Positions 17,737 to 55,972 are shown, counted from the stretch's first letter. The stretch is 64,000 nucleotides of DNA from Mesotaenium endlicherianum (GCA_009602735.1 WELA01001462.1:238895-302894), one strand, 5' to 3'. Notes: a model not told the origin generated them from the sequence alone. Numbers and translations are program-made.

Positions 17737-17785
<49 letters not shown>

Positions 17786-17795
17786 NNNNNNNNNN

Positions 17796-17868
<73 letters not shown>

Positions 17869-18665: not shown

Positions 18666-18712
<47 letters not shown>

Positions 18713-33565: not shown

Positions 33566-35200
33566 TCAAGGGAGCAAGATCGGGAGCCAGACCTGCGTTG
33601 GGGTCTCCTGAAGCCTGGGGCTCCGAGCAGGGAGAACCAAGGAGGAACGCATTAACTGGGCTGTTTCCTCCTGCACAGTCTGAAAATGAAAGGAGGCAGC
33701 CTTCTCCTGGGCATCCCTCAAACTGACAGGCACATATCCCGACATCCCAGAAGGATGTTGCAAGACATGAGCCAAAAGCACATGTCCTCTTTGTGAGGAA
33801 AATACTGGCAAGCCACTGGCAATTTCTCTAGCAGCCCTCCTGTCTGCCCTCTCTGGCTTGGTCTCTGCGCCTGCAGATGGGCTCTGTCCTCTGGCAGTTC
33901 CCAGCCACGAGATATCTTCCTCTTCAGCGAGCTGGTGCAGGGCTACGTCTGCCCTGGCCAACCCAATCTTCTCCATTACAGGGGATGTGGCAGGTGTCTG
34001 GGTCACAGCGGGGCTAGTGTCCTCTTCCTCGCCTTCCTCCTCTTTTTCCTCTGACTCCTCCTCTTCTCCCCCTGGCTCCTCTGAGACTGCTGGGTTCTCC
34101 TCTGTCAGCTGCTCCAGCTCTTCCCGAGAAAAAAAACACCCCACTGACCTTCCCCTTTTGGGTGCTGGTGGGGGCTGTTGAGTCCTGACCGCATACAGAT
34201 CTTTCTCTCCCTGCTTGCTTGCCCATATGGCATAAGCGTGCTTCCCTTTAGAGAATGACTCTCGGGCCCTGCTCCTGTCCTCCTGCATTTCTTGACTCAT
34301 GCAGTCTCTTACTCCATCCAATCTTGGGTCCCAAGCTGCAATGTGAGGGGGCAACACTATGTTCCCCTTTATGTCTGTTAGGAAATCTTCCTCCCCTGCC
34401 CTTTCATGTTGCTGATCCCTCATGTTGATGGTCATCCACCGCCAATCGGTGGGCTTTTGGAAGAAAACAGGGTCTGTCCTTTCCAGCGTCCAACGGTACC
34501 AATACCCTGCAAAGTCTAGCTGACTGGTTTCCCTGGCCAAGAATTCCCAGCTCCTTCTCTCCACCTCATTATACATGGCCTTGGACCTGTTATGGGATGT
34601 AGAGTCCTTAAAGCTGCCGCGTCCATAGGGATCATTATGATGACCCTATCTTTCCCCCAGATCCCCGAAATCGATACAGCTCCTTCCTCATCCACTTGGG
34701 CCATTGCCTTGGCCTCTCTGACCGTATATCCTATCATCCTTGCATAATCGTGGTAGAGGAGGAGTCCTGTGCTGACCTCTATATACTTGTCAAAGTTTTC
34801 GAATGTTTCCCCTTCCCTTTGCAGGATGTCCTTCTGTGACGCGCTGCAACTTCTCTAGGCATACTTGAAGGCCTCCTCCAGTAGATCAAAGCCCTTGCCC
34901 AGCACTGTGTAGCGGTAGCTGCTGATTCTCCTCTGTTCTTCTTCTTCAGCCTGCTGCTTCCGCCTCTCTTCAGCTTGCCTCTCCTCCTCTGCTTTCTTGG
35001 CCTCCTCTGCAACTTTTCTGTCCAGTTCTTCCTGCCTCAGTCTGGCCTGTTCCTCCTCCTCCTTCTTCTTCTGTGCCTCCCGCTATTGTTGGAGTCGTTG
35101 TGATTCCCGAGCGGAGATGGAGGATGATTTGATGTCGCCACGGAATTGCAAGTATTATGCATGTGCCTCTTCCGCTCTTCTCTTCCTCTTAAGTTTCGAC
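33566..35200 (-). pseudogene. Extra ORF between pol and the 3' LTR of chromovirus A, unknown function
   Basis: 336-aa ORF 34576-33566 (Trp-rich part, acidic tract), preceded by a broken charged coiled-coil-like frame (KKKEEEEQARLRQEELDRK) at ~35080-34860. The 5' boundary is approximate. Confidence 0.55.
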
Positions 35201-35585
35201 TTCTGAGTCATCCTGCTCAATCATAAACATAATGCAGTCAGTGAAGTCATGGTACTTTGCCGCTACTGAGTACTTTTGGTGGAGAAGAACGTGGTAGGGA
35301 GAATTCCAAGTGTGTAATACCTTGTGTGAGTGAGTAGAAGAGGAGAATTGAGTCAGAGAGAAAAAGTGAGTGTGAGCGCACGTTGAGTGTGTAAAATGAC
35401 TACACAAGAATTTGCCTGGCTGATTTCGAGGCGGAACACACTCCCTCCAACTTAATATTAAGGTGGGCTGCCTGTCACAACTGTCACTATCTGTCACTTA
35501 CTGTCACGTTTAACTGTCACGTTCCTCTCCAACTTATTTGGAGACAGGACCTCCTGTCACCTGTCCATGGCGACTGAAATGACTG

Positions 35586-38500
35586 TTAGGGAGAAGTGCC
35601 AGCCCCCCGAAGGTGGAACCGCTTCAACGCCCCTTTAGCAGTGATCAGCTGGTCTTTAAATTCCCAAGTGTCCCCAGAGGCATCGTACCCCTTCCATCTG
35701 ACTAGGTACTTCATGACATAATTAGATGATTGACGGACAAAGCGAGCGTCTAAATTCTCCTCGACCTCATATTCCTCAGGGTCACCATCGCGCACAGCGG
35801 GGACCGGTCCCGGTTGGACAGGTAATTGACCTGTGAACAATGTGTCACCTTTGATGTACGGTTCAAGGAAGGAGACATTAAAGACGGGATGACCCTTGTA
35901 TTCTGCTGACATGTTCAGTTTGTAAGTATTTTGACCAACACGGCGCACCACCGAATATGGACCGACCCAGACCGGACCAAGCTTTTTCTTGACCACACCA
36001 GGAAGGTACAGGTAATGAGAATGCAGTTTGACCAAATCGCCCTTAGAGAATGTCAGCTCTCGACGGTGCTCATTAGCGTATTTTTGTTGATTTTCTTGGG
36101 CTTTCTGCAGGTTCTGTTGGACTTCTGACAGGGTGTCAGCAAAACTCCTGGGTTAAATGTAGGGAGACCGAATGGTCAATCCCTTCAGGGTGAGTTAAAG
36201 ACTCCCCCAGTACATCTAAAGGAGACTTAGGGACTCTACCCAGGCTCAATTCAAAAGGAGTCTTGCCCGTTGACGCGTGCACCGCACTGTTGACCGCAAA
36301 CTGGATTTGAGGCAACAGGTCGTCCCAATTGTCTTATTTTTGGTTAATATATGCTCTCAACACCTCTTGCAGAACTCGGTTAGTTCTTTCAGTCAACCCA
36401 TCAGTCTGAGGGTGGTTTGCCGTGCTGAGCAGCTGTTTGACTCCCATTAACCCCATTAAAGCTCTCCAGAACTTAGAGGTAAATTTTGAGTCTCTGTCTG
36501 AGATGATATTAGAGGGTAGCCCATGTTGGCATACTACATGGTTGTAGAACTGTCTCGCTGTTTCGAGTGCAGTGACTTTGACAGTTGTGGGGATAACAAT
36601 GACCATTTTTGTCAATTTATCCACCACTACCAGTATAGAATCATGCCCATTGGCAGTTCGTGGTAGTGTTACCACCCAGTCCATGGATATTGTTTTCCTG
36701 CGTCCAACTGGGATGGGCAATGGTTGTAAGAGACCCCCCCGTGGTGTGTGCCTAGACTTATTTCTCAGACACTGATCACAGGACTTAACATATTTCAAGA
36801 CCTCCCGAGGCAACCCATCCCAATGATAATGTTTTGCCAGTTTGCCAACAATTTTGGCCTGCCCCAAATGCCCAGCCTGTAATTTGTCATGCGCTTGACT
36901 TAGTAAGAGGGACCTTATTTCCAAGTTATTGGGAATGACCAGCTTCAGCCTGCCTGAAGTGGTTTCAGTCACCCAAACCCCTCCCTTAAGCCTATATCGG
37001 AGTGCAGTAGCAGGACACACACCATCAGTGGGGCTGGGCTCAAATGTTGAGTCAGAAAGGTAGGCTTTTCTAAGTTGTTCAAGGAAGGACTTCTTCACCT
37101 TTAGTGAAGTGAGGGCTCACAGGACTTTATCTACAGCATGCTGACTAAAGTTCCTTTCTTGCAAGTCAGGTCTTCTAGAGAGTACATCAGCAGGATTTAA
37201 CTTTCCTGGTTTGTAGTCAATCTGGACTTGGAACTGCTCCAGCATCTGGCTCCAGCGGTTCTCCCTCCTCGACAGCTGGACTTCTTCTGAAAGTGAGTCA
37301 GAGCTTGATGATCTGTAATCACCTTAAAAGCTTTACCATGTCAGTATGCTCTCCCCTGTTTTAGCACATGAATGATAGCAAGCAGCTCTTTATCATGCAT
37401 GAAATAGTTAATTTCATCTGGGTTGTATTTCATAGACTCATACAGCACAGGGTGCCACTCCTGCCGTACCTTACCATCCTTTGCAATTTTGTGAGCAGGC
37501 TGCTACAAAATAACTCCCATGGCAAAGTCAGAAGCATCAGGAAGCACCTGCACAAATTTGCTGGGGTCATACACGACTAGCTCTGGGGCAGAACAAAGAG
37601 CATCTTTAAGGGTCTGGAAGGCAGCCTGTTGCTCTTCCCTCCACACATACCCTACATCTTTCTTAGGAAGGTCAGTCAATTTACTGGCCTTTGTAGAATA
37701 ATTCTCATTAAATTTCTTATAGTAGTTAGCCAACCCAAAGAAGGATCTAACTTTGGAGACAGATTGTGGTACAGGCCAGTCCCTTGTGGTGTGGACTTTC
37801 TTAGGATCCACCCTGACGCCTTCTTTACTGACAACGTGGCCTAAGAAATCAATACTTTCCTTGAAGAAATCACACTTGCTCATTTTAGCGTATAATTGAT
37901 TTCTTCTCGGAGTGTCCATGACTGTCCTTAAGTGTTCAACATGTTGAGCTTCATCTTAAAAGAAAATCAAAATATCATCCAAGAAGACTTGCACAAATTT
38001 ATCCAAATAAGGTCAAAAAATGTCATTCATGGCACCCATGAAGGTTGCAGGAGCATTAGTCAGTCCAAATGGCATCACGTTGAACTCATAGTGTCCATAA
38101 CGTGTGCAGAAGGCAGTCTTGTCTTCATCTCCCTCAGTAATTCTGATACAATGATAACCACTCTTGAGATCTATCTTACTGAACACTTTAGCACCAGACA
38201 GGGTATCAAGCAAGTCCTCGATTCTGGGTAAAGCATACTTGTTCTTTACGGTAATTCTGTTAAGAGCTCGGTGATCGACACTCATCCGCATACTCCCATC
38301 CTTTTTCTTAACAAATAGGATGGGTGCCCCATACGGTGAGGGGGAAAAATAACCATTTTCCTCAAGCTCTGCAATCTGTATTTTCAACTCTTCGCTCTCC
38401 ACATAAGACAAGCCATAAGTGCGTTGCCAGGTTGGCTGACTCCCCGGTAATAAATCAATCTTGTGATCTACATCCCTCTTAGGGGGTAGTCCTGGAGGCA

Positions 38501-38888
38501 TATTAAAACATCATAGTACGGAGCAACGATTTTTGCAGCAGTAGGGTGCTCCGGAGGGCTTACCTTTTTCTCAACCACTTTTTCAGGATAAGGAGGTACC
38601 TCTCGTAGCAGCAGACAGAACATTCTGTCTTCCTTCTGCTCCCAGCTTTCGATGAATTCCATTGCATTCAGCAATTTGCATCCTCCTGGAAGCCTATTCT
38701 TTTCCTTCATTTGCCATCCATACAGGACAAGAGGAAGAGCACTGGTGGGTGCCAAGTTAGTCTGCACATCACTGGCTCCTCTCACTTTAACTGTACCTCT
38801 GCTCCAATACACTTCAGCTTGATGTCTAGTGAGCCTAGCACGAGACCATAAAAGCCAGTGTTGAGTACCTCAAATGTAAGCGTTTCAG
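35586..38888 (-). pseudogene. pol of chromovirus A: protease C-terminal half, RT, RNase H, integrase, chromodomain (frameshifted)
   Basis: [44 protein letters not shown] (~37975), DASDFA, HHCC (HDKLQAGH..CDQC), ISMDWV / ISDRD / GLTER, WVGPY, and chromodomain YEVEENLD..KYLVRWKGY..DTWE. Confidence 0.95.
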
Positions 38889-40585
38889 TTAGAATCGCAG
38901 TCGCCGAATCTGCGCTGGCCGTGCCGGACTGCGTGCACGCGCCACGTGGAAGGACGTGTGCGCCGCTGGCGTGCGCAGCTGCTGCTGTGGCTGCCGAGCT
39001 GCGATCTTGTAGCTGGCTACTCGGCAAGCCTCGCGCCGCCGTGCGAGGTGTGAGCGGACGCGTGAGCGCGCGAATGTGCGCGTGGCTGCTGGCAAGAGCG
39101 GCTTGGCCTGCCGAACACGTGGCAAGGGTCGGCGCCTGCTGGACCCTGCTGCTTGCAGCAGCCAGCAGGGTGAGACCCTCCTGGCGTTGCCGGCTGGTGC
39201 GCAAATCTGCGCACGGAATGGCGACGCGTACGGCGAGGGCCGCAGCAGCCGTGTGTGCTGCAGACGTGTCACTCAGCTGGCGAGCAAGCCCTGTCGCGAC
39301 AGCTGACGATACGCAGACTGCTGGCAGCACTGCTGGCGTCAGCAGGACGGCACAGACAAGAGGGGCTGCCAAAGCCTGCGGCTGTGTTGGGGTGTGTGCC
39401 GGATCGTTAGGGGCGCGTTGGGAGCTGCAACGCCTGTGACGTCGGGTAGCGGGACCGAGTGCGCCTGCAGCCTGCCATCTGGCAGCCCGACCGGACGAGT
39501 GCAACGGCTGCTGACGGACATCAGCGCAGAGTGCGCAGGTCTGGCAGAAGCGTCTGCGCAGACGTATGCGGCGCTGGTCGCCGTAGCTCTGTCGTGGGGC
39601 GGGCGCGTGCAAGGCTGCAGCGCTGCTATAGCGCCAGGTGCCAGCCTCTGGGGCTGCCACGTGTAGGCGTCATGAAAGTGCGCAGGAGCTGCGCAAACGC
39701 CAGCTGTCGGAGCCGAGGCGTCGAACTGCGGGACGCGTGCGAAGAGGGCTCCGCACGCGTCGTAACTGTCGGTAGCGACGAGGCCACGGAGTCTGGCGAT
39801 CTCTGCGTTGGCCTCTACGAGGGCGTCGCTGACGTTGTTGAAACTGTAGTAATCGGCTCCGGAGGTCAGCGCGGCGTCCATCGTAGCTGGGGTTGCAATC
39901 ATCGAGGGACGTCCACCCGTGCGAGGGGTATGCATGCCCCGAAGTCCTGCTGTTGGCGCAGGACAGTCACGAGCCCGTCCGTTCTTGGCGTCGCGCTTCT
40001 TCTGCAGGCATACAATTCGCAGGTAGCCGGCCTTGCCACAGTAGGTGCAGTCACCGGGCTTGCCATTCTGCGCAATAGTGCAGTTCTGGCGAGAGTGGCC
40101 CGTCTTCCCGCAAGACCAACAGGGGTCACTCGTCGTGGCGGCCATGGAAATGCGGCCACGCGGAGCCCCGCGCTGCTGGGTCTGCTGGGACAGCTGAGAG
40201 CGCTGAGGCTGCTGCTGCTGTTGGGGCTGGCGAGCCGAAACTGGGCGCATTGTCGTGGATGGCAGCACCGAAGACTCCTGGCGTACTCCCGTGGATGCGA
40301 GGCCTACACGATCGCTAATGTTGCTCCGTGCGGCGGCCAAGCTCTGCTTCTCGACTGAGAGGTAAGCGTCCTCCAGCGAGTACTCGGAGCCAATGTGGTG
40401 GATGAGAGGAGCCATGGCTCGCTCCCTCAAACGTGGCTCTACGGCGCGCAAGAAGATCTCCGCTGCCTCCCGGTCAGTGACGGTGCCAACGTCTCGGCGA
40501 AGGTGCGTCAAGCGGCGGTACATCATGCGGATTGTCTCATTCTTGCGGCGGAAGAAGTGGTGCAGCTGACTTTCGCATTGTTCTC
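38889..40585 (-). mobile_element. GC-rich foreign gag fragment with two zinc knuckles inserted in chromovirus A
   Basis: Abrupt rise in GC and CpG; encodes CWSCGKTGHSRQNC and CTYCGKAGYLRIVC; family A protease-like sequence resumes at ~38888 (ETLTFEVLNTGFYGLVLG). Boundaries approximate. Confidence 0.75.
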
Positions 40586-40812
40586 CTGACTTAGCAAGGA
40601 AATGTTGGACATCAAGTGGAACAAGATCATCCAGAGTGTGTACTCTGTGGAGGTCTATTTTGCTGATGGTCTCCTTTATCTGTTTGTCAGGCATGCATAG
40701 TGAATCCAGTTCAGCAGGACCCGTAATATCTGCTACGAGGGCAGCTAGTGACGACTCACTATCTCTACCATCCTCACAGTCAGTAGACTGGATTACTGAC
40801 AGTTGCTATCTT

Positions 40813-42269
40813 TTAAGGCTGGTCTTTTCTCTCAACCTTTGGGAGGTGCTTGACTGGACACTGCTCTCTGAAGTGACCCAACTGCTGGCAATGGAAGCAA
40901 ACAGATTTTGCAGAGGCTGGTCTCGGCTTAGTCCTACCACCACCTCTTCCATAGCCACCTCCAGAGTAACCACCTCTCCCTCTAGACTGTATAGCATTAT
41001 ACTCATACTCGTACTCATCACCCGGATCATCCTCAGCCTGGTCTCCTTCAATTGCATTGTAGGACTCGTGGAGCTTTTTGACAATCTTAGACACCAAAGC
41101 ATTACTCTGGCGCTTGTGATTGAACTGCTACTGATCCCAGGCATCAGCATCCTGGATCAAGTCAGCCAATTTTTCTTACTTCTTCTCAGCAAAATGACCC
41201 GAGACTTCGGATTTCAAGCCATACTTGAAGTATGCTATCCTATATCGCTCTGGCAAGTCTGGCTGCTTCATCATGTTCTCCTAGAACTTTTGAGAAACTC
41301 AGCAACTGAAGTAGTTTGCTTCAGTGTCAAGGAGATCATTGCATAGATAGCTTTCTCCTGCTGGTTGATGACTTCAAACTTCTCATGCAGTTTCTCGACA
41401 AACTCTACTCAAGTAGGGTCACCGAGTTGCTGAGCCTTACGCTCTCCTTTCCAATACAGCCACCAGTCTTCTGCACTGCCTTTCAGTAGGGCATTAGTGT
41501 GCCTGACCTTCTCGTAATCTTGCAATCCTGGGTAGTTCTCCAGCCACTGCTCAACATCAGCGAGAAACTTGATCAGGTAATACTGTTTGTCTCCCTCAGG
41601 ATCATAATCCTGGGGAGGTTTCGGCTTAGGCATACTAGGCCCTCTGCCACCACCACCAGTGATTTGAGAACCCAGTTGGTCTCTGTCCTGCAGCAGTGAC
41701 ATTCTGATTCTTTTGTCAACCTGTTGGGACTGATTCATGCTCGTCATTTGCGATTGCATTTGCACAAATAATGCTTCCAAATCCACACTCTGAGGTGGGA
41801 GTCTAACAAATGCAGCAGTAGCAGTGGCATCCACTCGCTGAGTAGTGTCCTCAACAGTCCCTCTCGCTCTTGCAGCAACAACTCTTGCCGCATTCAGCCG
41901 GTCACGAACTTGACCTAGAGGCACATTGAGTTGTACAGCAAGAGGTGGGTTCAGAACATTGGCCCTTGCTGCCATAAGTTCTTCGACAGTGCGCTTGTCC
42001 GTTGGCTGTCCTTCCCTCCATTCTGTATCTTCAGCAGCCTTTGCTAATCGTTCAACTTCTAATCTGGCTCTCTCCTCCTCAGCCTGCTGTGTTGCGACTG
42101 CGGCAATAGCAGCTGCCTCATCTGTTGCCTCTCTAGCTGTAACATCTGCCACTGCTTCAGAATAGGTACGGGTTCCCGCTATATGACTTTCAGCCTGATT
42201 TTCGACATTCTCGTTATCCTGGTTCTCCATGTCTCGGAAGTTGCTAGTTTGAGACCTTGTCCTTACCAT
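40813..42269 (-). pseudogene. gag of chromovirus A (interrupted by stops)
   Basis: Starts MVRTRSQ just after the PBS; retrotransposon-gag-like LLKGSAEDWW; zinc knuckle CFHCQQLGHFREQC at ~40900. Confidence 0.85.
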
Positions 42270-43840
42270 ACAAAGAAGAGTGTGATAACTGCTCCGATAC
42301 CACTGAAATGAATCGACTTACCAAATAGGCGATTAACAATTAATGAAGATCTTTATATCACCAAGTAATCTTTCTGGTATTTTTTGTTAATTGATTCATC
42401 AGCAAAAGACAAACTAGCGTGTACAATACTCGCAAGTCAAATGGAAGTAAACTAGCATCAATAATGCAATCAGTAAACTCGTACATAAGCAAGGCTAGAA
42501 GACAATACATATCAATGGCTTCTCACCTTAGATTCATATATCTCTCCGTAAGCTTTACAAGTGAGTTGGCCTCGTTTCCAAATGCCGAACTCGAGAGCAA
42601 TACCTAGCATATGTACATGGAATGAGTCTACTGTTCAACGGCCAGTGCAATGGCACCGCCTACCCAGGAGTTAACCACGTCGGGAGGACCTCGATTCACC
42701 AAATCCACCGCCATCTCCCATCATCCCAAATCGCCATCCATCCTAAGGATGTCATCTGGCCACTCATCTAGCACACCACATTTAGATGCATATCTAGGCA
42801 GTTTGCTGCTACCGAGTACGGAAGTCAGTTGGCTGTCAAAGCATGTGTCAGCAAGCTGACCTAAGTTTACTTCAGCCTGCTGCTCCCGGCTGAGTCATTA
42901 AATTGATTATTTTACAAGGTCCAGCAGACTCAATATTAACTAAAGTTCAGCAGGCTGAACTTATTTAACTATAATATTTAAATGAATCTTATATCTACCA
43001 ATATATTGATTCATTACATGATGGCTGCTATGTTCCTCATTAGTTGGAGATAGAGAGAGAACATAAGCGGTGGAGCATTAGGAAGAGAATTGTCCCGGTT
43101 TAGACTTGGGAGCATGAGAGAATGAGGGCAAAGCGTTGATAGAAATCGGGAAGTGTGATCCTTAGTGTAACTTCAGACATATAAAGCTAAGTGCTGGAAT
43201 CAGCACTGTCAGAAAGTATAAGTACTAGCAAATATAAGACTTGGGCGGTTGGCTGCTCTTACTCTCTCTCATACACTGGCTCTCTCTAGGCTAAGCTGAA
43301 AGCATATTGGCAAAAGCGCGTGAAATGGAAAGCGTGTGCAAAAGAAGATAAAAGTAAGCGGCATCGCAGAAAATGAGTTGTCAGCCACGAGAAGGTGTGG
43401 CGCGAACTCGTGCTACACACCCTATCTTTGGGACGAATCCACCAAGCATTGTGGTCGGTCCCCTATCCCACCCACTAACTAATGACCCGATCAATCGGTG
43501 GAATCTGGGATGAGTCGGTGAGCCCATATTGCCCCACGACTTGCGGTGGCGAGGCGCGTGTGTGGGTCGGTGGGCACCATTAGTTCAGAGGGCTCCTCAC
43601 GGCAGCTCAAAAGCGACCTCATGAGGGGACTAGGGACTCAACACAACTCAGACCCAGACTCTCCTAGGTGCCTGGTTCTCACCTACCAACTCACCCCCCC
43701 AAGGATGCAAGTTCTAATAGGCTCCTCGACAAGAAGCAGCAGGCGACAAGCAACCATTTGACAGCTATTATGCTTGAAGCTGTCTGGAACTAACCATGTC
43801 GGTGATCCTAGAGAATGAACACAATTATGTTGAACGGCAG

Positions 43841-43986
43841 TGGGCAAACCCCCCTACTGCTAAGTGGGGGAAAAGCCCACATGCCTTCTTGGAATGAGCA
43901 AACAAAATAATTATTTCAACACTAAACTAATACTTAGAGAGAGAGTCTGTAATAGAGCACCAGCACTGAGCATGAACTATGAAACA
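43841..43986 (-). repeat. LTR end (family D) adjoining a PPT; duplicated at ~32441-32588
   Basis: On - strand reads GGGAGGGG|TGTTTCAT at 43994-43979; ~145-bp near-identical copy at 32441-32588. Confidence 0.7.
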
Positions 43987-44418
43987 CCCCTCCCAGTTGA
44001 GGTGGAGGGACCAAAAGGGAGAACCGACAAGGAAGCTGTAGACGGCGTAGGGTTGGTGAGATTAGAGACCAAGGCCTCAGGCGAAGAGCTGGAGAAGAAA
44101 TCGGGCGAGATGTACTTGTGCGAGAATGTCTGGAGCGTAGTAACAGGATAAACATCCAGAATGGAGTAGAGGTCGGGGTTGACAACGGAGCGGCGACCGT
44201 CAGCGAAAGGAGTAGAATGGCAGTCGGGGCAAAGGAGAAGAAGTCGTTGGTCAGCGTCTAGCGCATGCTAGGCGTAAGTAGGGGCGGCGGTTGAGAAGCG
44301 TCGGAGAGCAGCGACTGCTCCCACCAGGATGAGGGTACAAACGCGTCCACACCTGCGCGAAGAAAGAGCAGAGCGGCGAAACAGGGTACGCACAGGTGGG
44401 AGTGCTATCCTAAGCAGG

Positions 44419-44555
44419 ACAGAGGGGACAGTGTTAGGTGCCCGCGGGGACACGAGCAAGGGGGGGACTAAGGCAAGAGAGATGCCAACCTTGGTTACCA
44501 ACATTGCAGAGGAGCATGAATGCAGGACGGTTAGCAGAACCACAGTGTGTGCAAG
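44419..44555 (-). pseudogene. PHD finger at the C-terminus of the family B integrase
   Basis: CTHC..MLLCNVGNQGWHLSCLSPPLARVPAGT*HCPLC matches the C4HC3 pattern, with one Cys lost and the conserved Trp replaced by a stop. Confidence 0.85.
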
Positions 44556-47500
44556 GGCGATTAGCGGGGACAGTAGCAAGCAAAGGGTCAATTTTGTGGC
44601 GGATATTTGGAAGATGGCAAGGTGCGCAGTTGGGAGTATGCTCACAAAGTGTGCGCCTACCGGATCCCTCAATCGTGAGAACCCCATTAGGTGAGACAGT
44701 GCGGACGCGTAAGATCACGAGACCAGCCTGGACGTCTAAAGTGTCCTTGGTTTTGCGTTGCAGATAGACATAGTCCTCAGGTTCAAACTTAACCAGGCGC
44801 GATTTATAAACTCCGCTGCGCAGGCGGGCATAGCGGCGTGTGTCCCGGTGTTGTGCAATTAACAGGTTATGGAAACACGACGTTGGAAGAGGAGGGTGCG
44901 CTCTCAAAGGTGGGAGAGAAGAAAATCAGGATTTTCTAAGTCCAGAGATATAGTGAGGCAACGGCGGAGAGTAGAGGGGAGCAGGGGCTCACGTCCATAG
45001 AGGAGTAAGTAAGGGGAGTAGGTGCGGAGGGAAGCCTGGTTGCTAAAGTTATAACCCATGGCCAGCCTGGGTATGTGGAGGTCCTAATCGCTAACATCAT
45101 GAGCCAGACCGTACTTGCGCAAGCCCCGTTTCACAATCTAAACCACCCGCTCGGCCAGACTATCAGCCTGGGGGTGATCACGGGACGTGGTTCAATGGTC
45201 AATGAATGCGCGTTCCAGGAGGGTAGATAACTCACCTTCAAACTCCGACCCTTGATCCGTCAGGTCTTCAGCACAGGTCCCAAAGCGACACAATACGCGC
45301 TCTATGAAGGCGACAGCCACATACCCACTGGACTTGTCAACCAAGTTAACGAGCTCAATCCATTTGGTGAAATGCTCGATCACAACGAGCACATAACGAT
45401 GCACGCGCCGGGACACGGGCAGGGGCCTGCTAGATTCAAAGACCACCGGTACAACATCCCACGAATGAGCAACGGCTGAAGCGTGGATGGAGTAGCATTG
45501 AAACTAGTGCGCACCTAATTGCAGATCGTGCAAGATCGGAGAACAACAGCGCCTTTAGTGACCATCCCTACCCACCAGTTGTCAGCTCGGAGCAGGGCAG
45601 CCGTACGACGGGCCCCAAAGTGTCCTAATTCTAAGTGGACGCGATAAATGAGAGCACTACGTTCTGCGACCTACGGTACCACCTTCTAGACACCCCAAAG
45701 GACCCGAAAAAGAGACCCGTCTTGCCAGCGGTAGCGCAGATTGCATTGCAAGATTTTATCGCGCTCACCGAGCGCCACGCCGACAGGCATTAGCTGACTA
45801 CGTAGGTAGGTGAGAACAGGGGTGTCATTCCAGACATCAGTAGAGAGAGGAGAGGTGTTAGGTTCGTCCAGATTCAAGACAGGGACTGAAGAAGACAATC
45901 CGAGAAAGTAAGACGCATGCCAAGCTGGCAATAGGTGCTCTTGCAGCTGGGAGGCGTCACGAGCACTCGTGGAATCGGCTTCAGAGGGATCAGGGTTGCG
46001 GCTGAGACCGTCGGCATCCTGATGCGCAAGTCCGGCCTTGTGTTCAAGCGTAAACTTGTACTCTTGTAGTATTAATGCCCAACGCGCATGCTTCCCGATG
46101 AGACGTTGGTTTGTCACGAGCCAGCGCAATGGTTGGTGAACAGTGTTCAACGTGAAGTGAATTCTGTAGAGGTAAGGTCGGAAGTGCACTACCCCCCAGA
46201 CTGCTGCCAGACATTCTCCTTCGTAGGAGCTGTAGTTCTTTTTGGCGGAGTTATTACTACGATTCGCATAGGCCACTACGTACTCGTGACTCTCGTGGTC
46301 GGGTTGAGCTAAAACAACGCCCAATCCCAGGTGGCTCCAGTCTGTATGAAGCACAAACAAACGCTTGTAATCAGGGCAATTTAAAATAGGCGCGGAAGCT
46401 AGCAGGACTTTCAGATGCTCGAACGCTGTCTGACACGCTAGAGTCCATTCCCACATGACCTCTTTCTTGAGCAAGGCGTTCAAGGATGCAGCTACGGTGC
46501 TAAACTTGGAACAAAAGGGGCGGTAGTAACCTGTGATTCCCATAAACGCACGTAAACGCGAGACATTGGTAGGTAATGGCAGACGCTGAATAGCGCCAAC
46601 TTTAACCTGCAACGGCGTGAGACCCTCGGGTACTATGTAGTGACCCAAATATGCTACTGACAGCGTGGTGATCTTGCACTTGCTCGGATGGCAGCGTAGT
46701 CCAGCTTGACGCAAACGTTGTAAAACAATCTATACGTGCGTGAGATGCTCTGAAACTGAGCGGCTGAAAATAAGGACGTCATTTATGTAGCATCTGGCGA
46801 ACGCAACTTCCGCTAGCACCCGATCCATGACTCGCTGAAAACGGGCGGGCGCGTTCTTAAGCCCAAAGGGCATCATGCCCCACTGGTACAGACAGTTGCT
46901 GAGCCCCCCAAAACGTTAACTTATACTTATCCTTTAGGTCTATAAGGATTTGGTTGAAGCCCTGTCGGAGATCTAACACGCAGAACACACAAACGTCCTC
47001 TATTGTATAGAAGATATCCTCAGCTAGCGGCATAGGGTAGCGATGGAGTTTGGTAACACTGTTTAACTCGCGGTAATCGCTGCACATGCGTTTTTCGGTG
47101 TAATTTCCCTCTAGATCTTTTTTTGCGGGCGTGACAGTCGAGGCTACGAAGTCAGACACGGAGTCCTCAATTAGGCCTGTCTTCAACAGTTCTGCACACT
47201 TTTCTTCGATAATATCCCTCTCTACCTTGCTGTGACGGTATGGTCTTCTAAAAACGGGTTCGGAGGTGGTTAACTCAACATTCATGTGCGAGATTGTGCA
47301 AACGCCTAAGTCCATGATCGTGCGTGCGAAGCAATCCTCATTGCTGGCTAGCAGGGCTAAGAATTGGGTGGCCTCATCCTCCGTTAATTGTGCTCCGAGA
47401 TCCCATGCTAACGGCGCAAGTGTCGGAACTAAGGTGCTCAAAGATGAAACCGTTAACTGCTATGCGCACGTGGGAAGACTAGCGCGGAGTCTAGGCAAAG

Positions 47501-47589
47501 CGAGAAGTGAGGTGAAAGGGAGAAGGGTGCGGGGAGTGCGCCCACACGCACTCACGCACCCTCACGCGCGAGTAGAAGCGTGCACGAGG

Positions 47590-48227
47590 ACCTTTCCTAG
47601 TTGCATACACAAGGTGGAGTGGCCTGGTGGTGTGCCACCCTTGCAAGAGTAAGAGAGCTACATGAGAGAGGAGTGGAAAAAGACCTCACTTGATGAAGAA
47701 AAGTCGTGTACAAGATAAGAAGCTTAATCTGGACTAGACAAGACCCCCTCTCCTTCCTTGTGCTTTCTATTTATGCTTCAACTCTTAGTGTCCTCTCTAG
47801 CAAAGTACTCTAGAACCTTCTACTATGGCTCCTTCCATGTAGGTGACCTTGCCTAGTTGGACAAGCTAGCACACTCACACGCACACATTTACGCTCTAGA
47901 ATATTCTACTACACAATCCACTAACTCCTCACGGAGTTTCTAGAAATTCCACAATCACTTTGGCACTCTACGTAATCGTACGTAGTTTCTGGAACCCTCA
48001 TGATTCAATGTCCTACTTTCTGGACTCCAACCAAAATTTTTGTCACTAAACCTGTCCTTGTCACTAAATTAAATCTGTGACACTAAAAGCTCACTAAAAA
48101 CTCCCAAAACTCATGTTTCCTAATACTTGTCCAAATGACTTGAACTAAAGGTCAAAGTTCTTCTAAACTCACACTCTATGCATATAAAATGCTAGTAAAA
48201 TACAAACCACACTTTCATAACCTTACA
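47590..48227. mobile_element. AT-rich LTR-like insertion between the methyltransferase and RT of family B
   Basis: Composition shift, no ORF, ends CCTTACA; possible TSD CGAGG/TGAGG. The left terminus is not a canonical TG. Confidence 0.5.
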
Positions 48228-48324
48228 TGAGGAGAAACCCCCCCCTTGGCCGAAAGAGGAGAGATGGTAGAGCGAAACAGCGTGCTAGGGAGTGTGTGTG
48301 CATGTGTTAAGAACAGGAAGAATT

Positions 48325-49275
48325 GAGAAGAGCCACGTGAGGACGTGAACGTCCATGACACGGCCCAGCAGCTGGCAGCGTTGGGAATCAGAGAGGGACG
48401 AGGAGATAGTAGCAGAGGGGAAAAATCCGAGAGCGACTTCACGTTTGAGGGCATTAGGTTCGACGTATTGGGAAAGTGTGGGTCAAAGTGCATGCCCGGC
48501 CCGAAGTTGCGGAAAGCGTAAAACGACGGACGACTGACCAGGGTAGGGAAGGCGGCACGAGGGTGACCGGGTCGGTTAATGCCACAAGAAGACGAGTGGT
48601 CCACAGTCTAGACCTCTATGGGACAGCGGTGGGACGAGAGGATGGAGGAGAGGAGGAGGGAGGGAGGAGAAGCATGGAGTGTGGAGACTAAGAAGCGGAA
48701 GTGAGAGGGACTGAGGAAATTTTGTCAAAATGCGCGAGAACGGTGCGCGTAGGAACCGATCGCGACAGCGTCGCGAACGACTGCAGGACCAAGAATAGAG
48801 GTGACTGTGAGAAAGTCGTGACGAACAGTGGAACGAGCGTCGTCGGCAAAATAGACATTCTCTACGAGGTAAGCGAGCGGGTGACTTTGGTGGGACAGGA
48901 GGTGACTGAGGATCCAAACGAGTTCAAAGAACAGATGAGAACGAGGATCAGACAGACTCAACCCTTTCCCTGCACGGGAGTGACCTTGGCATTCCCACCC
49001 GCCGACTACCAGATCAACGGGACCAAGGGCGGACAAATGGCTGGGTTGTATGAGACAGACGTCTTGTGGCAGGGTAGAATATGCTGTTGTGTGAGATGAA
49101 GGAGGAAGCTGACGAGGGAAGAGGCAACTGAGACGGGAGAGGCGTACAGCGCTGGCCTGACGGGCGAGGAGGTCAATATCACAATAAACATTTTGTGAAA
49201 TAGTATAACTGCTTAACAGAAGGCCTGCGACTAGGGAAGACACTCCAGCAAAGAGGTCGAGGACTACGAGTCCAT
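48325..49275 (-). pseudogene. C5 cytosine DNA methyltransferase domain within retrotransposon pol
   Basis: Motif I VLDLFAG (~49265-49245); II YCDID; III QDV; IV DLVVGGWECQGHSRAG followed by DPRSHLF; VI LVENV (~48860); VIII AHRSRAF*; IX-X EPNALKREVALGF..RCQLLGRVMD (~48460-48350). Confidence 0.9.
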
Positions 49276-52200
49276 TCGGATGGGAAGACCAAGAGACTGG
49301 TGCAGTGTGGAGATGGGGAATGCCCACAAGTGGCGGAAGGTTGGGAACTGATGGGGGTGGACAGAAATTGGAGGAGGAGCGTAAGGCTAATTGAACTCGG
49401 GTCTGTGTGGCAGCTGACATGGTGTAAGTGGAGGCGGTGGAAGGAGTCAGCGTCGACGCGGGCGGGATATCAGTGGTAGCGTCGTGAGAGATGAGGTAGG
49501 AGGAAGACCCCAGGTCAGATGGACACACGTCATCAATGGATACGGCAAACGCGGAATTCACAACGCTGACAGAGAAGCGCACGGGATGAGTGAATACTAC
49601 GGGAAGGTAGCCTATGTGAGCCCCGTTAGACTGGTAGTTGACTCGGTAAGTAGCATTGCCACACTAGGAGTCTATAGCCATCCCCATTAGAAAGTTAAAT
49701 TCTTGACCTGTGAGAACATCGTAGGATGTGGATTCGGTAACCATGCATTGGGCGTAGAGGGTGAGATCTGCTGAGGTGTCGGCATTGAGGGTGATGGGTA
49801 GGCGGCGACGTGTTTGAAATGAGGTGTGAGTGTGCGCGGACATGGTTGTGGAGACTAGGTTTGGACAGAGTTCCAGATCTGCGGACGTAATGCCTAGATT
49901 CTGACACATGACCACCCCAAGAAGGACCAGCTGGGCACCAGTGTCCAAAATAACGACGCGTGGAGCAAGGTACTTAATTAAGAAACACGATTAGCGGTTG
50001 TCCAACATCACATTGCGAGGGAAGGATTGCTGACGAGCCTCTGGAGTAAGAGAAGAGGGTAAAGAATCATACCTGAGGTGGCCCTGCGAGACAAAAGCAG
50101 GCGTGGAAGCGGGAGCGATTGAAGAAGGCTTACCAGGTTTGATGTCGACAGGCGGTAGGCGCGCAGCACCATCGGTGGATGACGTTGGAGGGCTTGCCTC
50201 CTCAGGCTCGATCGTGGCTTGGAAGGCGGCGTCAACGCTGTCGACTGTGGAGGGTATGGTATTGGTACATATGAGGTCTATCATAGAAGGACGGGTGCTG
50301 GTGGTGTCACCGCAGCGGTGGGCGAGCTCCTGCGTGATGCGCCCCTGGGCCAGCACCAACTGGGCAACAGAAAGAACGGGGAGCAAGGTGAAAAACGGCT
50401 GTAGGATTAAGAGGCGGCGGAATGAAGCGGACCACTGGGACCACCGCAGATAGTGAGGAAGAGGGGACAAACGAGGGGGATGAGGGTGAGAGCTTCTTGG
50501 GAAGTTTGGCTGCAAGCTCATCCAGTGCAGAGTCAGTTGCTAACGCTAAAGGCATTACGGGAGTAGACGGCTGAGAAAAGGACGGCTGAGGCGCGGGCAA
50601 AGTGTATGTGACGGTACCAAAAGCGGACATAGTAGTATCAGGGAGAGTTTGCGAGGAAGATGGGGAGCGGCAAGCAGGTTCCAAATCCACGTAGCAGGCA
50701 AGCGTGGCATCGTGGGTAGCTGAAGGAGTCGACATTGGGAGATCGGCCACCACCTGGGCGTAGGACGGTGGTAAGAGGAGGTCCCTTTTGACTGTAGCAG
50801 CAGCGGCCCTGAGGTTGTCACAAATAGCTTGGGTGTAAAATTGTGCCTCCTGAAAGTCTGCTGCCATAATGCATAAGGTGCCTGCAGGCACTCCCCCAAC
50901 CTTCGAGAACCGGAACAGTAGGAGCTGTCCCAAAAGTAGCGAAATGTTCCGAAAAATCCAAAGATCGAGGAATCTGAGCGATAGAGTGTTCGAGGTTGCG
51001 GTTGTGATCAGGCCCACCGGCAAGGGGTGGAGGCGCGGTAACTTCCGTGCATGCAACACGACGAGTGTGCACTGCGTGAATATGGACTGAATCACTGAGC
51101 ACTTCATGCACGCAATAAGCGGAATCAGGTGGGCGGAGAAACGAAAATGGCCTATCCGGCATTTGAGGTTGACGTGGATGAAGACCCACGTAGCTGGCAG
51201 AATCGGGTTGGGACCTGACGCGTCGGTGCATGTCTTGCAAACTGGCCTGGAGAGCTGCCAGTTGTTGTCGCACAACGAACTCGTCGGCTGCTGGCAGAGG
51301 GTAGTGAGTCTGCGGAGAAGGCAGCAGCGGAGGTAGGTGGACCACTGCCCCCGTAGCTGTGGATGGCGGTCGATGTACCCAACTGGGCGGAGCCTTGTGC
51401 GGGTATAGGGTGTAGCAGTCGGCGATGACGTGACCCCTCCTCTTGCAGTGATTGCAGGTGGCGCGTTTAGGAGCCACAGCAGGTTGAGCTCCCATCCTAG
51501 AGATGGCAGGCGTGGACACCTGCACAGCATGTGCACCCGCAGTTGGTTGCTTAGCATGGCGTCAATCAGAGGCTACGACAGCTGCAACCATTTCCAATTG
51601 TTTTACCCAAGCACAAATCTGCTTCAAATTGCGTTTGGCTGGATTGGAAAGAGCGTATTGCTGCTGCAACCTGTCCCACAAAGAAGGCATGGCACGCATA
51701 TATTGAAAGCAAGCGTCATTAGCACCCAAGAAGAGCCCAATATCCTAAATGAGTATACTAATGCGGTGCCGCAACATCAGGGGTGTTTCTCCTGCTCGTC
51801 GCTCCAAACCCCTAATCTCATCCTGGCGAGCCACAGAATCAAGCGAATATGCTTTTCGTAGCTGTTCTAGGAACACAACAACTCGATCCACAGGCGCGTC
51901 TGGGTGTGGGTTGTGGAAGGGAACGTGGACTCTCATTAGTGCTTGGCGCTGCCGCTGCTGCAAGTCTCGTTGTTGTAGATCCAGGGAACGTGCTGCCGCA
52001 ATTTGAATTAGCATTGCATATGCGATTAGGCTTCTCTCCTCCGGATCGGGTTCCTCTATTGCAACCACAGCGAGAGGGTCGGGCAGGGCAGCTCCCCCTC
52101 TCGCTCCTGGAATCAATATTCCTCCCACGAGCACACCACCTCCTCTCGGGCCTCCACCTTCTCCCCCTTCTTTCTCCACCTTCTTGGGCGGCACCCTCAT

Positions 52201-52761
52201 CGGCAGGGCCAGCTGCTGGTATAGAAACGACAGTTGGGACAGCTACATTGCCCGCAGGTGGAGTAGTACGAATCAGGAACGGTTTGCTATCCTCATATTG
52301 TGTCAGGGCGTCTTCACTCAGGTAGTTGGGTAGCATAAGAAACAAGTCATCACTAGTGACTATCGTTACGGGACCGCAATATTGCATAGGATGCTTTCAG
52401 CCTGGAACACAACGTGTGCAAAGTCATCCCAGATGGTCTCCCAGAGAGGAGCTGGTGAAACACTCCTCCCATGTCTGACGTCATTTCGTCTTTTACAGAA
52501 TGGGGATCGGTATTCTCTCCAAGTGCTTCTCCTTTGGTGCTACATTCGGTGTCGTAAGGGCTGAGAAGGGCAGGATCATGGATTTTTACTTCGGTTACTG
52601 TTTCAACAGCAAGCTGTAGGGGCCTGAACACTACCCCACTCCGTGTGCGACTGGGTTCGAAAAGCATACAACTTAGAGAGTAGCCCGTGGCACCTCCTTA
52701 GGACGGCCAAACTTGTAGAAGAGTGCTATGGTTAGCAGACCAACCCACAGTCCATTCACAC

Positions 52762-53482
52762 TGAAATGAATCGACTTACCAAATAGACGATTAACAATTA
52801 ATAAAGATCTTTATATCAACAAGTAATCTTTATGGTATTTTCCGTTAACTGGTTAAACGGCAAAGGACAACACACTAGCAGTGAATAATACTTGTAAGTC
52901 AAATGCGAGTAAACTAGCATCAATAATGCAAATCAGTAAACTCATACATAAGCAAGGTTAGAAGACAGTGCGTATCAATGGCTTCTCGCCTTGGATTCAG
53001 ATCTCTCTCAGTAAGCTGTACAAGAGAGTTGGCCTCGTTTCCGAATGCCGAACTCGAGAGCAATGCCTAGCATATGTACAAGGAATGAGTTTACTGTTCA
53101 ACGGCCAGTGCGATGGCACCGCCTACCCGGGACTTAACCACGTTGGTAGGACCTCGGTTTACCAAATCCACCGCCATCTCACATCATCCCGAATAGCCAT
53201 CCACCATAGGGATGTCATCTGGCCATTCATCTAGCATATCGCACTTAGATGCATATCAAGGCAGTTCGCTGCTACCGAGTACGGAAGTCAGCTGGCTGTC
53301 AAAGAATGTGTCAGCAAGCTGACTTAAATGGACTTCAGCCTCCTGCTTCCGGCTGAGTCATTAAACTGGTATTAAATATCAAATCCAGCAGAGTGATTAA
53401 TAACTAGTGTTCAGCAGGCTGAACTAAATTAACTATTATATTTAAATGAATATTATATCTACTAATATACTCATTCATTACA
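52762..53482 (-). mobile_element. Solo LTR of family A
   Basis: TGAAATGAATCGAC..TTCATTACA homologous to the A LTRs; 5-bp TSD CACAC on both sides. Confidence 0.92.
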
Positions 53483-53505
53483 CACACACTGAGGACTTAG
53501 CTTTG

Positions 53506-54307
53506 TATGAGACGAGTCTGTGGTCTGGGTCGACTAGGTTAGCGAGTAGACTAGATTGTTATGGCTGCTATGTTACTCGTTAGTTGGAGATAGGGAGAGA
53601 ACGTAAGCGGTAGAGGATCAGGAAGAGAATTGTCCTGATTCAGACACGGGAGCATGAGAGATTCAGGGCAAAGCGTGGATAAAAATCGGAAAGTGTGATC
53701 CTTAGAGTAACTTCAGACATACAAAGTTGAGTGCTAGAATCAGCATTGCCAAATAGTATAAGTACTAGCGAATATAAGACCCAGGCGGCTGGTTGCTCTT
53801 ACTCTCTCTCACACACTGCCTCGATCTCTCTAGGCTAAGCTGAAAGCATATTGGCGAAAGCGCGTGAAATGGAAAGCGTGTGCAGTAGAAGATAAAAGTA
53901 AGCGGCGTTGCAGGAAATGAGTTGTCAGCCACGAGAAGGTGTGGCGCGGACTCGTGCTATACTCCTTATCTTTGGGACGAACCTCCCAAGCATTATGATC
54001 GGTCCCCTATCCCACCCGCTAACTAATGACCAGGTCAGCCGGTGGAATCTGGGATGAGACGGTGAGCCCATGTTGCCCCACGACTCGCGGTGGCGAGGCG
54101 CGTGTGTGGGCCGGTGGGCACCATTAGTTCAGAGGGCTCCTCATGGCAACTCAAAAGCGACCTCATGAGGGGACTAGGGACTCAACACAACTCAGACCCA
54201 GACTCTCCTAGCTGCCCGGTCCTCACCTACCAACCCACCCCCCCAAGGATGCAAGTACTGATAGGTTCCTCGACAAGAAGCAGCAAGCGACAAGCAACCA
54301 CCTGACA
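53506..54307. repeat. LTR-like repeat family C, right copy
   Basis: Direct repeat of the split left copy; the near-identical 71-aa ORFs at 43546 and 54090 reflect this. Confidence 0.85.
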
Positions 54308-55972
54308 AACTCAACCACAACACATAAGCTCATACACGACACTGAGGAGCACTTTCTTACTCACGGCTCAACTCTTTTCTCTTATTCTCAAGTGTACCCT
54401 TACATCGCCTCTGCGCCTCCCTATCTACACTCACAATGGCGGCTGCCTACCTACCTTAAACACATCGACAATCTTAGTCACCCAAACCCTACATTTCGAT
54501 ACACACTTACTCCAACGTCTGACTAGAATTGACCGACCACACACAGACACATCGATTGTCACACATGTGTACACAAGTGTTAAGAAGATGGAGCTAGAAT
54601 TGCTTATTTTGTATACCCCTTCTCAGTTCCTACTCTATTTATATATTTTCTCTTTAAATTCAACCATGTCTGTACATCATTGGCGCTTTACTTTAAGGAC
54701 TGTCTTTGTTTAGGCATCAGCCACCATCTTATCAAATCTCACGTACTTAAACTCCACACTGGCCAATGGACCATGGCTGAGATGGCCTACCCTCTCAGCA
54801 TTGGCTGACTTGGCATCAGCAGAGATGGCTCTCGCGTCAACTCTTGCCTGACTCAGTAGCTGCTGACATGGTCCCCACTTTAGCTCTGCCTAACTTGGCA
54901 GCTGCTAGCGTGGACCTTGCGGGTTTTTGGTGGGGTCAACCTTATAGCTGACATTCTGTCAATCCCCACCCATCGTTGGATTTCGGGTTTGATGGTCGCA
55001 GTAAGAACTCACGTGTGGCTGACTCGTTGTTTTTCAACACTAAATTGTAACAACAGGTCTGGTCGGTGAGTCAGCGAGGACCGTCTGGACATGAGTCTGC
55101 CGCGACTTCCGCCACGCTTGTCGCACCACCCATTAGGGAGCAGTCGCGACAATGGGTCAGTCACCTTGAGTCAAATTCGAGTGAAATCGGCAGGAAATCG
55201 GTAGAAATCGGGGCAGCCTGGGCCAACCCAACCTGAGCCCAACTACTCTGGTTCACTTTGGTTTGCTTTGGTTGGTCGAGGAGTGTGCCTTTTGGTCGTT
55301 TAAGAGACAACTACAAGTTGATTGGATCTAATTCCTTTGTGATGGTCAACGGGCAGCAACTAACTTGCTGCAACTGGCAGCTTTTATTATTCATGTTGCA
55401 TGATGTTGCAACCCTGTTGCAACCCATGCTCCTAGATTAACGTTCCTGTGGTATCATGTCATAAAAGCCGTGGTGACGTGGGTGTCAACAGCTCTTTGAA
55501 AGTGTTTGAAGCGCACCAATTAATTCGTTTACCATTAAAGACTAATTGAACCTTCGAAAGACGGGAAATGTTTAAAAGCTTGTCTGAGAGCGTGCATGGG
55601 CCAGCGCTGACCATGTCCTCTGACGTCCACAATCGTCCGTATATTCCGTATGTTATGATAAAGCGGTAAATGCATGTAAATGCCCGCTTTTGAGACAAGC
55701 GTGAGCAAGCGCGAAGACTCGCAAGAAACCACAAGAAGCGAAGAGTATCCACAACCATCAAGAACTAGTATATATCAACGCTAGTTGATGCGTGCGTGGG
55801 TGGAGTACGGTATTCGTACACAAGTTTTACACCTGGTTGGCAAATTTGGAGCTGTGGATAAGAGCAGCAGCTAGTTGTGTTTTTGGTTTGCTCTCAACTG
55901 CCTCATAGCAACTATGATGAGCAAAGTAGCGTTGCGTGTTCCTCGAGAAACTCGGCAAGCTTCATAGCGGAT

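What the first reader, a model, noticed from the sequence alone, without database searches (positions are those of the whole stretch)
43987..52713. Ty3/gypsy retrotransposon carrying its own cytosine DNA methyltransferase inside pol
Seen: a C5-MTase motif series (I, II, III, IV, VI, VIII, IX, X) on the same strand as pol, between the aspartic protease (~49945) and RT (~47400), with no obvious introns. Known: canonical gypsy pol is PR-RT-RH-IN. DNMT-bearing retrotransposons are rare, reported in dinoflagellates and Klebsormidium (de Mendoza et al. 2018). Inference: the enzyme would be released by the protease and packaged in the particle, where it could methylate new cDNA or insertion sites. 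This copy is decayed.
Basis: partly seen in the sequence, partly recalled or inferred. Interest (0 to 1): 0.92.

Follow-up and report, generated by a model that had tools for sequence, protein, structure and literature searches.

The report
Algal retrotransposon with built-in DNA methyltransferase
A dead jumping gene, likely in a green alga, carries a DNMT3-type DNA methyltransferase inside its polyprotein and has split end repeats, like an element described in 2018 from another alga; its relatives keep their two insertion ends head to head in a short internal palindrome, so intact copies likely insert from a circular DNA copy, which the enzyme might methylate.

Summary
Confirmed. A C5-methyltransferase domain (PF00145 above cut-off; catalytic Cys, ENV, motif VIII Arg kept; family fold closest to DNMT3) lies between protease and RT of a decayed gypsy pol (PR-DNMT-RT-RH-IN-PHD). 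It is no one-off: 87 of the 150 best homologues sit in retrotransposon polyproteins, 10 in this position, including Klebsormidium nitens, Closterium and intact single-frame polyproteins. So this is a new member of KnitGypsy-Dnmt3 (de Mendoza 2018), in a likely zygnematophyte host.

The apparent LTR pair is partly a nested chromovirus LTR. The true layout is A-coding-B-A-B (54307 to about 32434). In 10 of 11 related metagenome loci that reach far enough, a palindrome GACAGCTGTC lies 3' of pol; the window element starts with its right half and probably ends with its left half. I infer integrase cutting inside one LTR of a two-LTR circle (about 50%). Methylation of the element's own cDNA is untested; the Klebsormidium enzyme was inactive in yeast (inconclusive). 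No target-site duplication is seen here. The scan noted such DNMT elements, split repeats and abutted ends before, on other DNA (moss/plant).

The parts
53506..54307 (-). Repeat A1, the 5' end of the element; starts TGTCA
   Evidence: 90.6% over 743 columns and 87.9% over 58 columns to the two pieces of A2
52762..53482 (-). Nested solo LTR of the chromovirus family (W), 5-bp duplication CACAC; not part of the DNMT element
   Evidence: 89% to both LTRs of the nested chromovirus; summed contig depth above 1e5 against about 60
50300..52400 (-). Broken gag region with CCHC zinc knuckle at 51456-51415 (outer limits approximate)
   Evidence: zf-CCHC E 0.09; tblastn of P0283 at 51888-51415
49685..49987 (-). 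Aspartic protease, ILDTGA at 49951
   Evidence: Pfam E 0.024, below cut-off; tblastn of P0001 E 2e-8
48330..49290 (-). DNMT3-type C5 cytosine methyltransferase domain, motifs I-X in normal order; two stops and one frameshift
   Evidence: fold of intact homologue P0010 closest to DNMT3A/3B
47435..48227 (-). High-copy 793-bp insert, likely a solo LTR of an unrelated family (TG...CA, duplication CCTCA/CCTTA)
   Evidence: summed depth about 9e4 against about 60
45990..47432 (-). Reverse transcriptase and RNase H; frameshift near 46900; YIND at 46789 where homologues have YIDD
   Evidence: RVT_1, RT_RNaseH E 4e-30
44880..45844 (-). DDE integrase (HHCC and core), broken
   Evidence: tblastn of P0002 E 1e-79
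44419..44556 (-). PHD finger at the end of pol
   Evidence: PF00628 E 8.3e-5, 23 bits against cut-off 24; 42% to P0002 672-821
43987..43994 (-). Short polypurine tract GGGAGGGG directly before B1
   Evidence: sequence; G-tracts lie between pol end and junction in 8 of 10 relatives examined
43766..43986 (-). Repeat B1 (end uncertain: CGACA near 43797 or decayed TAATA near 43766)
   Evidence: 90.5% over 147 columns to B2
43759..43804 (-). B1|A2 junction: decayed or interrupted form of the family palindrome GACAGCTGTC
43021..43763 (-). Repeat A2, first piece
32647..43018 (-). Nested full-length chromovirus (two W LTRs, Met-type primer site, RT, RH, IN, chromodomain; duplication TTATG/TGATG) inserted in A2; not part of the DNMT element
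32589..32646 (-). Repeat A2, last 58 bp, abutting B2 (CA-TA-TG)
32434..32588 (-). Repeat B2, probable 3' end of the element (ends CCCGACA)

Best explanation
This is an old, dead copy of a gypsy retrotransposon of the KnitGypsy-Dnmt3 kind, with a DNMT3-type methyltransferase between protease and RT and with split repeats (A-coding-B-A-B); intact members likely make an ordinary linear cDNA with B|A at both ends, likely join it into a two-LTR circle that the integrase would cut at the palindrome inside one repeat, and the methyltransferase would likely methylate that unintegrated DNA. Shown: domain, order, former single frame, repeat layout, family-wide position, purifying selection in relatives, conserved palindrome in relatives, element start at the palindrome's right half. 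Inferred: release of the DNMT by the protease and its presence in the particle; CG methylation of the new cDNA (about 50%); the circle-cut route (about 50%). The circle-cut route accounts for the purine tract directly before B1, for B2 starting at the same base as B1 and abutting the end of A2, and for the ends falling on the two halves of CA-GC-TG, which a two-base staggered cut turns into two processed integrase ends at once.
For: PF00145 above cut-off. 87 of 150 best homologues carry another retroelement domain; 11 have the DNMT ahead of RT, of which 10 after gag/protease and one (P0106) ahead of protease; 76 have it between RNase H and integrase. K. nitens GAQ93235.1 is gag-knuckle-PR-DNMT; Closterium and Mesostigma proteins show the same order; P0281 and P0283 are unbroken knuckle-PR-DNMT-RT-RH-IN polyproteins. 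RT/RH tree: window with 5 DNMT-before-RT rows (SH-aLRT 87), sister to 73 DNMT-after-RH rows (94), joined at 99. dN 0.085-0.39 with saturated dS for the DNMT in 3 of 3 pairs of relatives. A1/A2 and B1/B2 both differ by K2P 0.10. GACAGCTGTC: 11 exact hits in 47 loci (316 kb), 0-2 in 20 Markov controls, 0 in 1.1 Mb of viral loci, always 295-1873 nt after pol in the 10 measured. L084 has A1 starting exactly at TGTCA behind unrelated DNA and an identical A2 behind GACAGC. Foamy-virus integrase cuts a palindromic circle junction with loss of two bases (PMC1180852, abstract and section 9).
Against: No target-site duplication of 4 or 5 bp at the window's presumed ends (AGTT vs CTTG), and the 3' end is uncertain. 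The window's own palindrome is decayed or interrupted by 31 nt, and B1 and B2 differ by an indel near their ends. All loci with the exact palindrome have the DNMT between RNase H and integrase or lack RT; none has the window's order, and L098 lacks it despite 3.3 kb of sequence. They form only about 8-9 independent families. No primer site was found after A1. Motif IV is ECQ, not PCQ (as in 73 of 141 homologues); no ECQ enzyme is shown active here, and KnitGypsy-Dnmt3 did not methylate yeast DNA (PMC5890265). The window's DNMT is unresolved in the DNMT tree. No circle, transcript or methylation was observed.
Confidence: 0.6

Rival explanations
1. DIRS/PAT-like copying: the RNA runs from within A1 to within B2, both ends are rebuilt from the internal B1|A2 junction, and the integrase acts on that product; the DNMT acts as in SymbioDIRS-Dnmt3.
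For: The layout is that of PAT/Ngaro/VIPER elements (PMC6681497 passages; PMC5890265 Fig. 1e and 4c legends). No tRNA primer site after A1. No duplication at the ends.
Against: A purine tract sits exactly before B1, which points to LTR-type plus-strand priming. No tyrosine recombinase family was hit in the window ORFs or 11 homologues scanned. The junction is CA-NN-TG, a DDE-integrase signature.
Confidence: 0.2
2. The domain is kept for a non-catalytic or non-cDNA role (binding of DNA or RNA, or damping of the element's own activity), not for methylating cDNA.
For: No activity of the K. nitens enzyme in yeast (PMC5890265). Pro of the PC motif is replaced by Glu in 73 of 141 homologues.
Against: Cys, Gln, ENV and motif VIII residues are kept in at least 80% of 141 homologues; the fold matches DNMT3A/3B at TM about 0.7-0.8; related SymbioDIRS enzymes methylate CG (PMC5890265).
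Confidence: 0.25
3. An ordinary LTR element (LTR = B|A, TG...CA) whose two-LTR circle was inserted once by accident or was rearranged later; the split layout is no family trait.
For: B starts with TG after a purine tract and A ends CA-TA; no duplication at the window's ends.
Against: The same layout is reported for K. nitens (PMC5890265); the palindrome is conserved in distant relatives; L084 starts at the same half-site.
Confidence: 0.08
4. One-off capture of a host or bacterial methyltransferase gene, or an assembly chimera.
For: The element body is near single-copy depth in the DNA runs.
Against: One 4711-nt contig spans gag to DNMT without difference (that run may be the source). Homologues have the same order. 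At least 4 other contigs of the run match motif X at about 80-84%.
Confidence: 0.02

Closest known systems
KnitGypsy-Dnmt3 of Klebsormidium nitens (de Mendoza et al. 2018, PMC5890265; I read parts 1 and 3 of 7 of the text, the Discussion, found passages and searched 3 supplement files; figures not held)
   Same: Gypsy pol with an intronless, unrearranged DNMT3-type domain; split repeats like DIRS with gypsy domains; a K. nitens protein among the hits has the same gag-PR-DNMT order (32% and 47% identity).
   Different: Other host (likely zygnematophyte); dead copy. The text I could read names no domain order, PHD, purine tract, palindrome or integration route; Fig. 4c may show the order and a PHD.
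SymbioDIRS-Dnmt3 of Symbiodinium (same paper)
   Same: DNMT3 in Pol, A-coding-B-A-B repeats, two domain orders coexisting; cDNA methylation proposed.
   Different: Tyrosine recombinase, not DDE integrase; shown active on CG; independent capture.
EpiLTRs of Euglena and Cymbomonas (bioRxiv 10.64898/2026.05.21.726589; passages read)
   Same: LTR elements with a C5 methyltransferase and a chromatin reader.
   Different: DNMT4-sister enzyme plus DAM and chromodomain; here DNMT3-like plus PHD. The preprint treats streptophyte Gypsy-DNMT3 as a separate capture.
Foamy-virus integrase cleavage of two-LTR circle junctions (PMC1180852, abstract and section 9); IS3-family circles with abutted ends (recalled, no call)
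   Same: DDE enzyme acting on abutted ends in a palindrome with two bases between the CA dinucleotides.
   Different: There the palindrome is the LTR-LTR junction; here it lies inside the repeat, so the inserted copy is permuted.

Membership tests
KnitGypsy-Dnmt3 | Gypsy pol order with DDE integrase | tested here: met
   PR, RT, RH, IN in order
KnitGypsy-Dnmt3 | Intronless DNMT inside the Pol frame | tested here: met
   same frame as PR; same frame as RT across the 798-bp insert; unbroken in P0281, P0283
KnitGypsy-Dnmt3 | DNMT3-type, motifs not rearranged as in DRM | tested here: met
   motifs I to X in order; best PDB sequence and fold matches DNMT3A/B/C
KnitGypsy-Dnmt3 | Split repeats A-coding-B-A-B | tested here: met
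KnitGypsy-Dnmt3 | Key catalytic residues kept | tested here: met
   Cys, Gln, ENV, motif VIII Arg present; Pro replaced by Glu as in 73 of 141 homologues
KnitGypsy-Dnmt3 | DNMT groups with the K. nitens retro-DNMTs | tested here: inconclusive
   GAQ93235.1 (P0080) is among the 150 best hits (E 6e-28) but sits in an open fork; no host DNMT3 rows in the tree
KnitGypsy-Dnmt3 | Purifying selection on the DNMT | tested here: inconclusive
   met in 3 of 3 pairs of relatives with the other domain order; no sister sequence for the window copy
KnitGypsy-Dnmt3 | Methyltransferase activity | not testable with these tools
   not shown for the K. nitens enzyme either (PMC5890265)
Canonical Ty3/gypsy LTR element | Two full direct LTRs at the ends | tested here: not met
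Canonical Ty3/gypsy LTR element | tRNA primer site after the 5' repeat | tested here: not met
   no TGG start and no self-priming match of 8 nt or more in the first 60 nt after A1; decay cannot be excluded
Canonical Ty3/gypsy LTR element | 4-6 bp target-site duplication | tested here: inconclusive
   none seen, but the 3' end is uncertain and the copy is 10% decayed
DIRS/PAT/Ngaro | Tyrosine recombinase | tested here: not met
   DDE integrase present; no recombinase family hit in the ORFs scanned
Chromovirus / EpiLTR | Chromodomain and DAM domain | tested here: not met
   PHD at the pol end; the chromodomain belongs to the nested element; no second methyltransferase-like tail in the window

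The most novel reading that the evidence does not exclude
A widespread green-lineage gypsy clade has moved its integrase sites into the middle of its LTR and inserts only from a two-LTR circle cut at GACA^GCTGTC, and it carries a DNMT3 (relocated once within pol) to methylate that circle before insertion: a retrotransposon with an obligatory, self-methylated circular intermediate and a DDE integrase.
Probability: 0.3. Interest if true: 0.85.

Novelty: new member of a known kind. Interest (0 to 1): 0.52.

Why it matters
The DNMT itself is in print, but from one alga. Here the same lineage shows up in Mesostigma, Closterium and this host, with the enzyme in two positions that follow the RT tree, so it looks old and selected, not a local oddity. 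The conserved head-to-head ends give the unexplained split repeats of KnitGypsy-Dnmt3 a testable cause. Two-LTR circles are usually taken as dead ends (established knowledge); a clade that must insert from them would make that old question testable with one oligonucleotide assay and one circle-sequencing run. It would also say what substrate the captured methyltransferase meets.

Tried and rejected
Reading 42301-43763 and 52759-54307 as one LTR pair: rejected, half of each is the W LTR of a nested chromovirus with its own duplications and primer site.

No whole genome is held, so sister copies could not be read; only contig pieces were seen.

No RNA holder listed. Laying X5, X8, X11 (6, 13 and 24% of each run) on 48205-50300 gave 0 reads; no test, since the organism was not shown in these runs on another stretch.

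Viral contigs gave only distant methyltransferases (25-44% over short pieces); used as outgroup and control.

C-to-T differences between repeats by context: A1/A2 CG 12/79, CHG 19/75, CHH 26/283; nested W LTRs CG 11/46, CHG 9/61, CHH 13/208. Fits host methylation; no sign of extra CG methylation by the element; too small to test.

A first scan for att pairs with a TGG primer site in the spacer gave only chance hits; the palindrome was noticed in its output. A PBS after B1 (CA-TGG at 43794) was considered and dropped: relatives have two bases there.

The protein atlas did not answer. ARAGORN found no tRNA. The agmatinase search did not place the host.

Paper searches: only PMC5890265 holds 'KnitGypsy' or all of retrotransposon, cytosine methyltransferase, Klebsormidium, gypsy; 0 papers for Zygnematophyceae+Mesotaenium+retrotransposon+DNA methyltransferase and DNMT3+Mesostigma+retrotransposon+Klebsormidium; (listings) showed no paper on a circle-cut gypsy element. 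Subscription papers, figures and the preprint's supplements were not visible and may bear on novelty.

Full report
Observation. The minus strand of 43987-52713 holds a broken gag (zinc knuckle 51456), protease (49951), a C5 methyltransferase (about 49290-48330), RT, RNase H, integrase and a PHD finger. The methyltransferase passes the Pfam cut-off, has motifs I-X in normal order, and keeps the catalytic Cys, ENV and motif VIII Arg. Its best PDB sequence matches are DNMT3C/A/B and one bacterial enzyme (E 5e-4 to 2e-3). An intact homologue folded at pLDDT 96 and matched DNMT3A/3B best (E 4e-20, TM 0.68-0.80); the window's own domain was not folded. The copy is dead: stops, frameshifts, changed RT and integrase aspartates, and three nested insertions.

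One former reading frame. Protease and motifs I-VIII share a frame with one stop between. The DNMT C-terminus and RT share a frame across a 793-bp high-copy insert with a 5-bp duplication, 798 bp in all. Unbroken knuckle-PR-DNMT-RT-RH-IN polyproteins exist (P0281, P0283).

Family. The representative search gave 1285 clusters at E<=0.001, 377 at 1e-10. Of the best 150, 63 show only the DNMT, 76 have it between RNase H and integrase, 11 ahead of RT; one of the 11 (P0106) is a different Dam-DNMT-PR element. I looked up 30 of the 150: six carry algal names (Closterium 5 with P0013, P0020, P0096, P0144, P0154; K. nitens P0080) plus Mesostigma P0009; the rest are unnamed metagenome proteins. The K. 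nitens protein has the window's order; I infer that it is a KnitGypsy-Dnmt3 copy. In a quick RT/RH tree of 82 rows the window joins five DNMT-before-RT rows (SH-aLRT 87), sister to 73 DNMT-after-RH rows (94), with 99 for both. In the DNMT tree, rooted on six viral enzymes, most 'after' rows form a clade (95) inside an open grade of 'before' rows, and the window is unresolved. One capture and one move within pol fits both trees, but no AU test was run and the root is distant. The three complete relatives with the window's order (P0281, P0283, P0096) show no PHD, so PR-DNMT-RT-RH-IN-PHD was seen only here. The DNMT is under purifying selection in 3 of 3 pairs of relatives.

Host. A neighbouring seven-exon transporter gene matches a Mesotaenium protein at 78-99% per exon, so the host is likely a zygnematophyte alga. 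In four DNA runs of one sample the element body lies near single-copy depth; at least four other contigs match motif X at about 80-84%, two also near motif IV, so diverged DNMT-bearing relatives exist in the genome, context unseen.

Ends. The long direct repeats split into a 717-bp LTR of a nested chromovirus (full element 32647-43018 and a solo copy 52762-53482, each with its own duplication) and the element's own repeats: A1 54307-53506, B1 from 43986, A2 43763-43021 plus 32646-32589, B2 32588 to about 32434. Both pairs differ by K2P 0.10, the nested LTRs by 0.08. This is the A-coding-B-A-B layout that PMC5890265 gives for KnitGypsy-Dnmt3 without explaining it in the text I read.

The palindrome. 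In 47 metagenome loci of the family, GACAGCTGTC occurs 11 times, once per locus, after pol; controls gave 0-2. Of 21 loci with a defined pol end, 11 reach 700 nt beyond it and 10 of these carry it; L127 is the eleventh hit. L084 shows A1 beginning exactly at TGTCA behind unrelated DNA and an identical A2 behind GACAGC. The window has TGTCA at both A starts, GC before A2, and CCCGACA at the B2 end, but its junction is decayed or interrupted, and no target-site duplication is visible. The loci with the exact palindrome all belong to the other domain order.

Mechanism. A purine tract directly before B1 suggests that RT makes B|A at both ends of a linear cDNA. Cutting that linear DNA at both palindromes would give A-coding-B only. 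Joining the ends first gives the precise A2-B2 abutment, and one cut at CA^GC on both strands inside the upstream repeat gives A-coding-B|A-B with two processed ends. Foamy-virus integrase does this chemistry at its circle junction (PMC1180852). I put this route at about 50%, the DIRS-like route at 20%. The DNMT most likely methylates the unintegrated cDNA, as proposed in PMC5890265 for DIRS elements, where CG activity was shown; for the gypsy enzyme it was not. About 50%.

Earlier notes of the scan. I recorded the split repeats and the palindrome before seeing notes on them. Notes report a gag-PR-DNMT element in peat moss, permuted LTRs, and ends abutted two bases apart in moss. The permuted-LTR note moved me to read B|A as the RT-defined LTR. 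These are unchecked leads, not support.

Verdict. Real, a new member of a known kind. Identity about 0.9; full mechanism about 0.3. Interest 0.52, carried mostly by the ends and by the width of the family.

Noticed in passing
window 27460-28527 (-): Agmatinase-family ORF with a hydrophobic, signal-like N-terminus; the 120 best homologues listed are 59-75% identical and every named one is a bacterial agmatinase. Likely a gene taken from bacteria into the algal genome.
   Followed up: partly
L104:5616-6341 and similar tails in L082, L086, L088, L092, L100, L107, L109, L116; P0002 930-1164: Many relatives with RH-DNMT-IN-PHD end in a further 230-aa domain, unknown to Pfam, that folds (pLDDT 85) weakly like class I SAM methyltransferases (best E 4e-3; M.TaqI among the hits). 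They may carry a second, adenine-type or dead methyltransferase. The window element lacks it.
   Followed up: partly
L084:1975-9320: Element with identical A repeats and one 1798-codon frame DNMT-IN-PHD-tail but no RT or RNase H detected: a young non-autonomous copy that kept the DNMT and integrase.
   Followed up: partly
P0106 (unnamed metagenome protein): Dam-like, DNMT, protease, RT, RH, IN, SH3 in one protein, with a DNMT related to this family: EpiLTR-like layout.
   Followed up: no
window 32647-43018, 52762-53482, 47435-48227: Three later insertions (a full chromovirus, its solo LTR, an unrelated solo LTR) all landed inside this one element, none of these families elsewhere in the 64 kb by self-BLAST; fits targeting of silenced DNA.
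   Followed up: no
window 17500-19140 (+), 21359-25432 (+), 55862-56284 (+): Host genes: S41 peptidase exons, a molybdate-transporter-like gene, an F-box piece; introns rich in (CT)n and (GT)n.
   Followed up: no
P0053, P0116: Extra readers in relatives: a G-patch between DNMT and integrase (P0053); a PHD ahead of the integrase (P0116).
   Followed up: no
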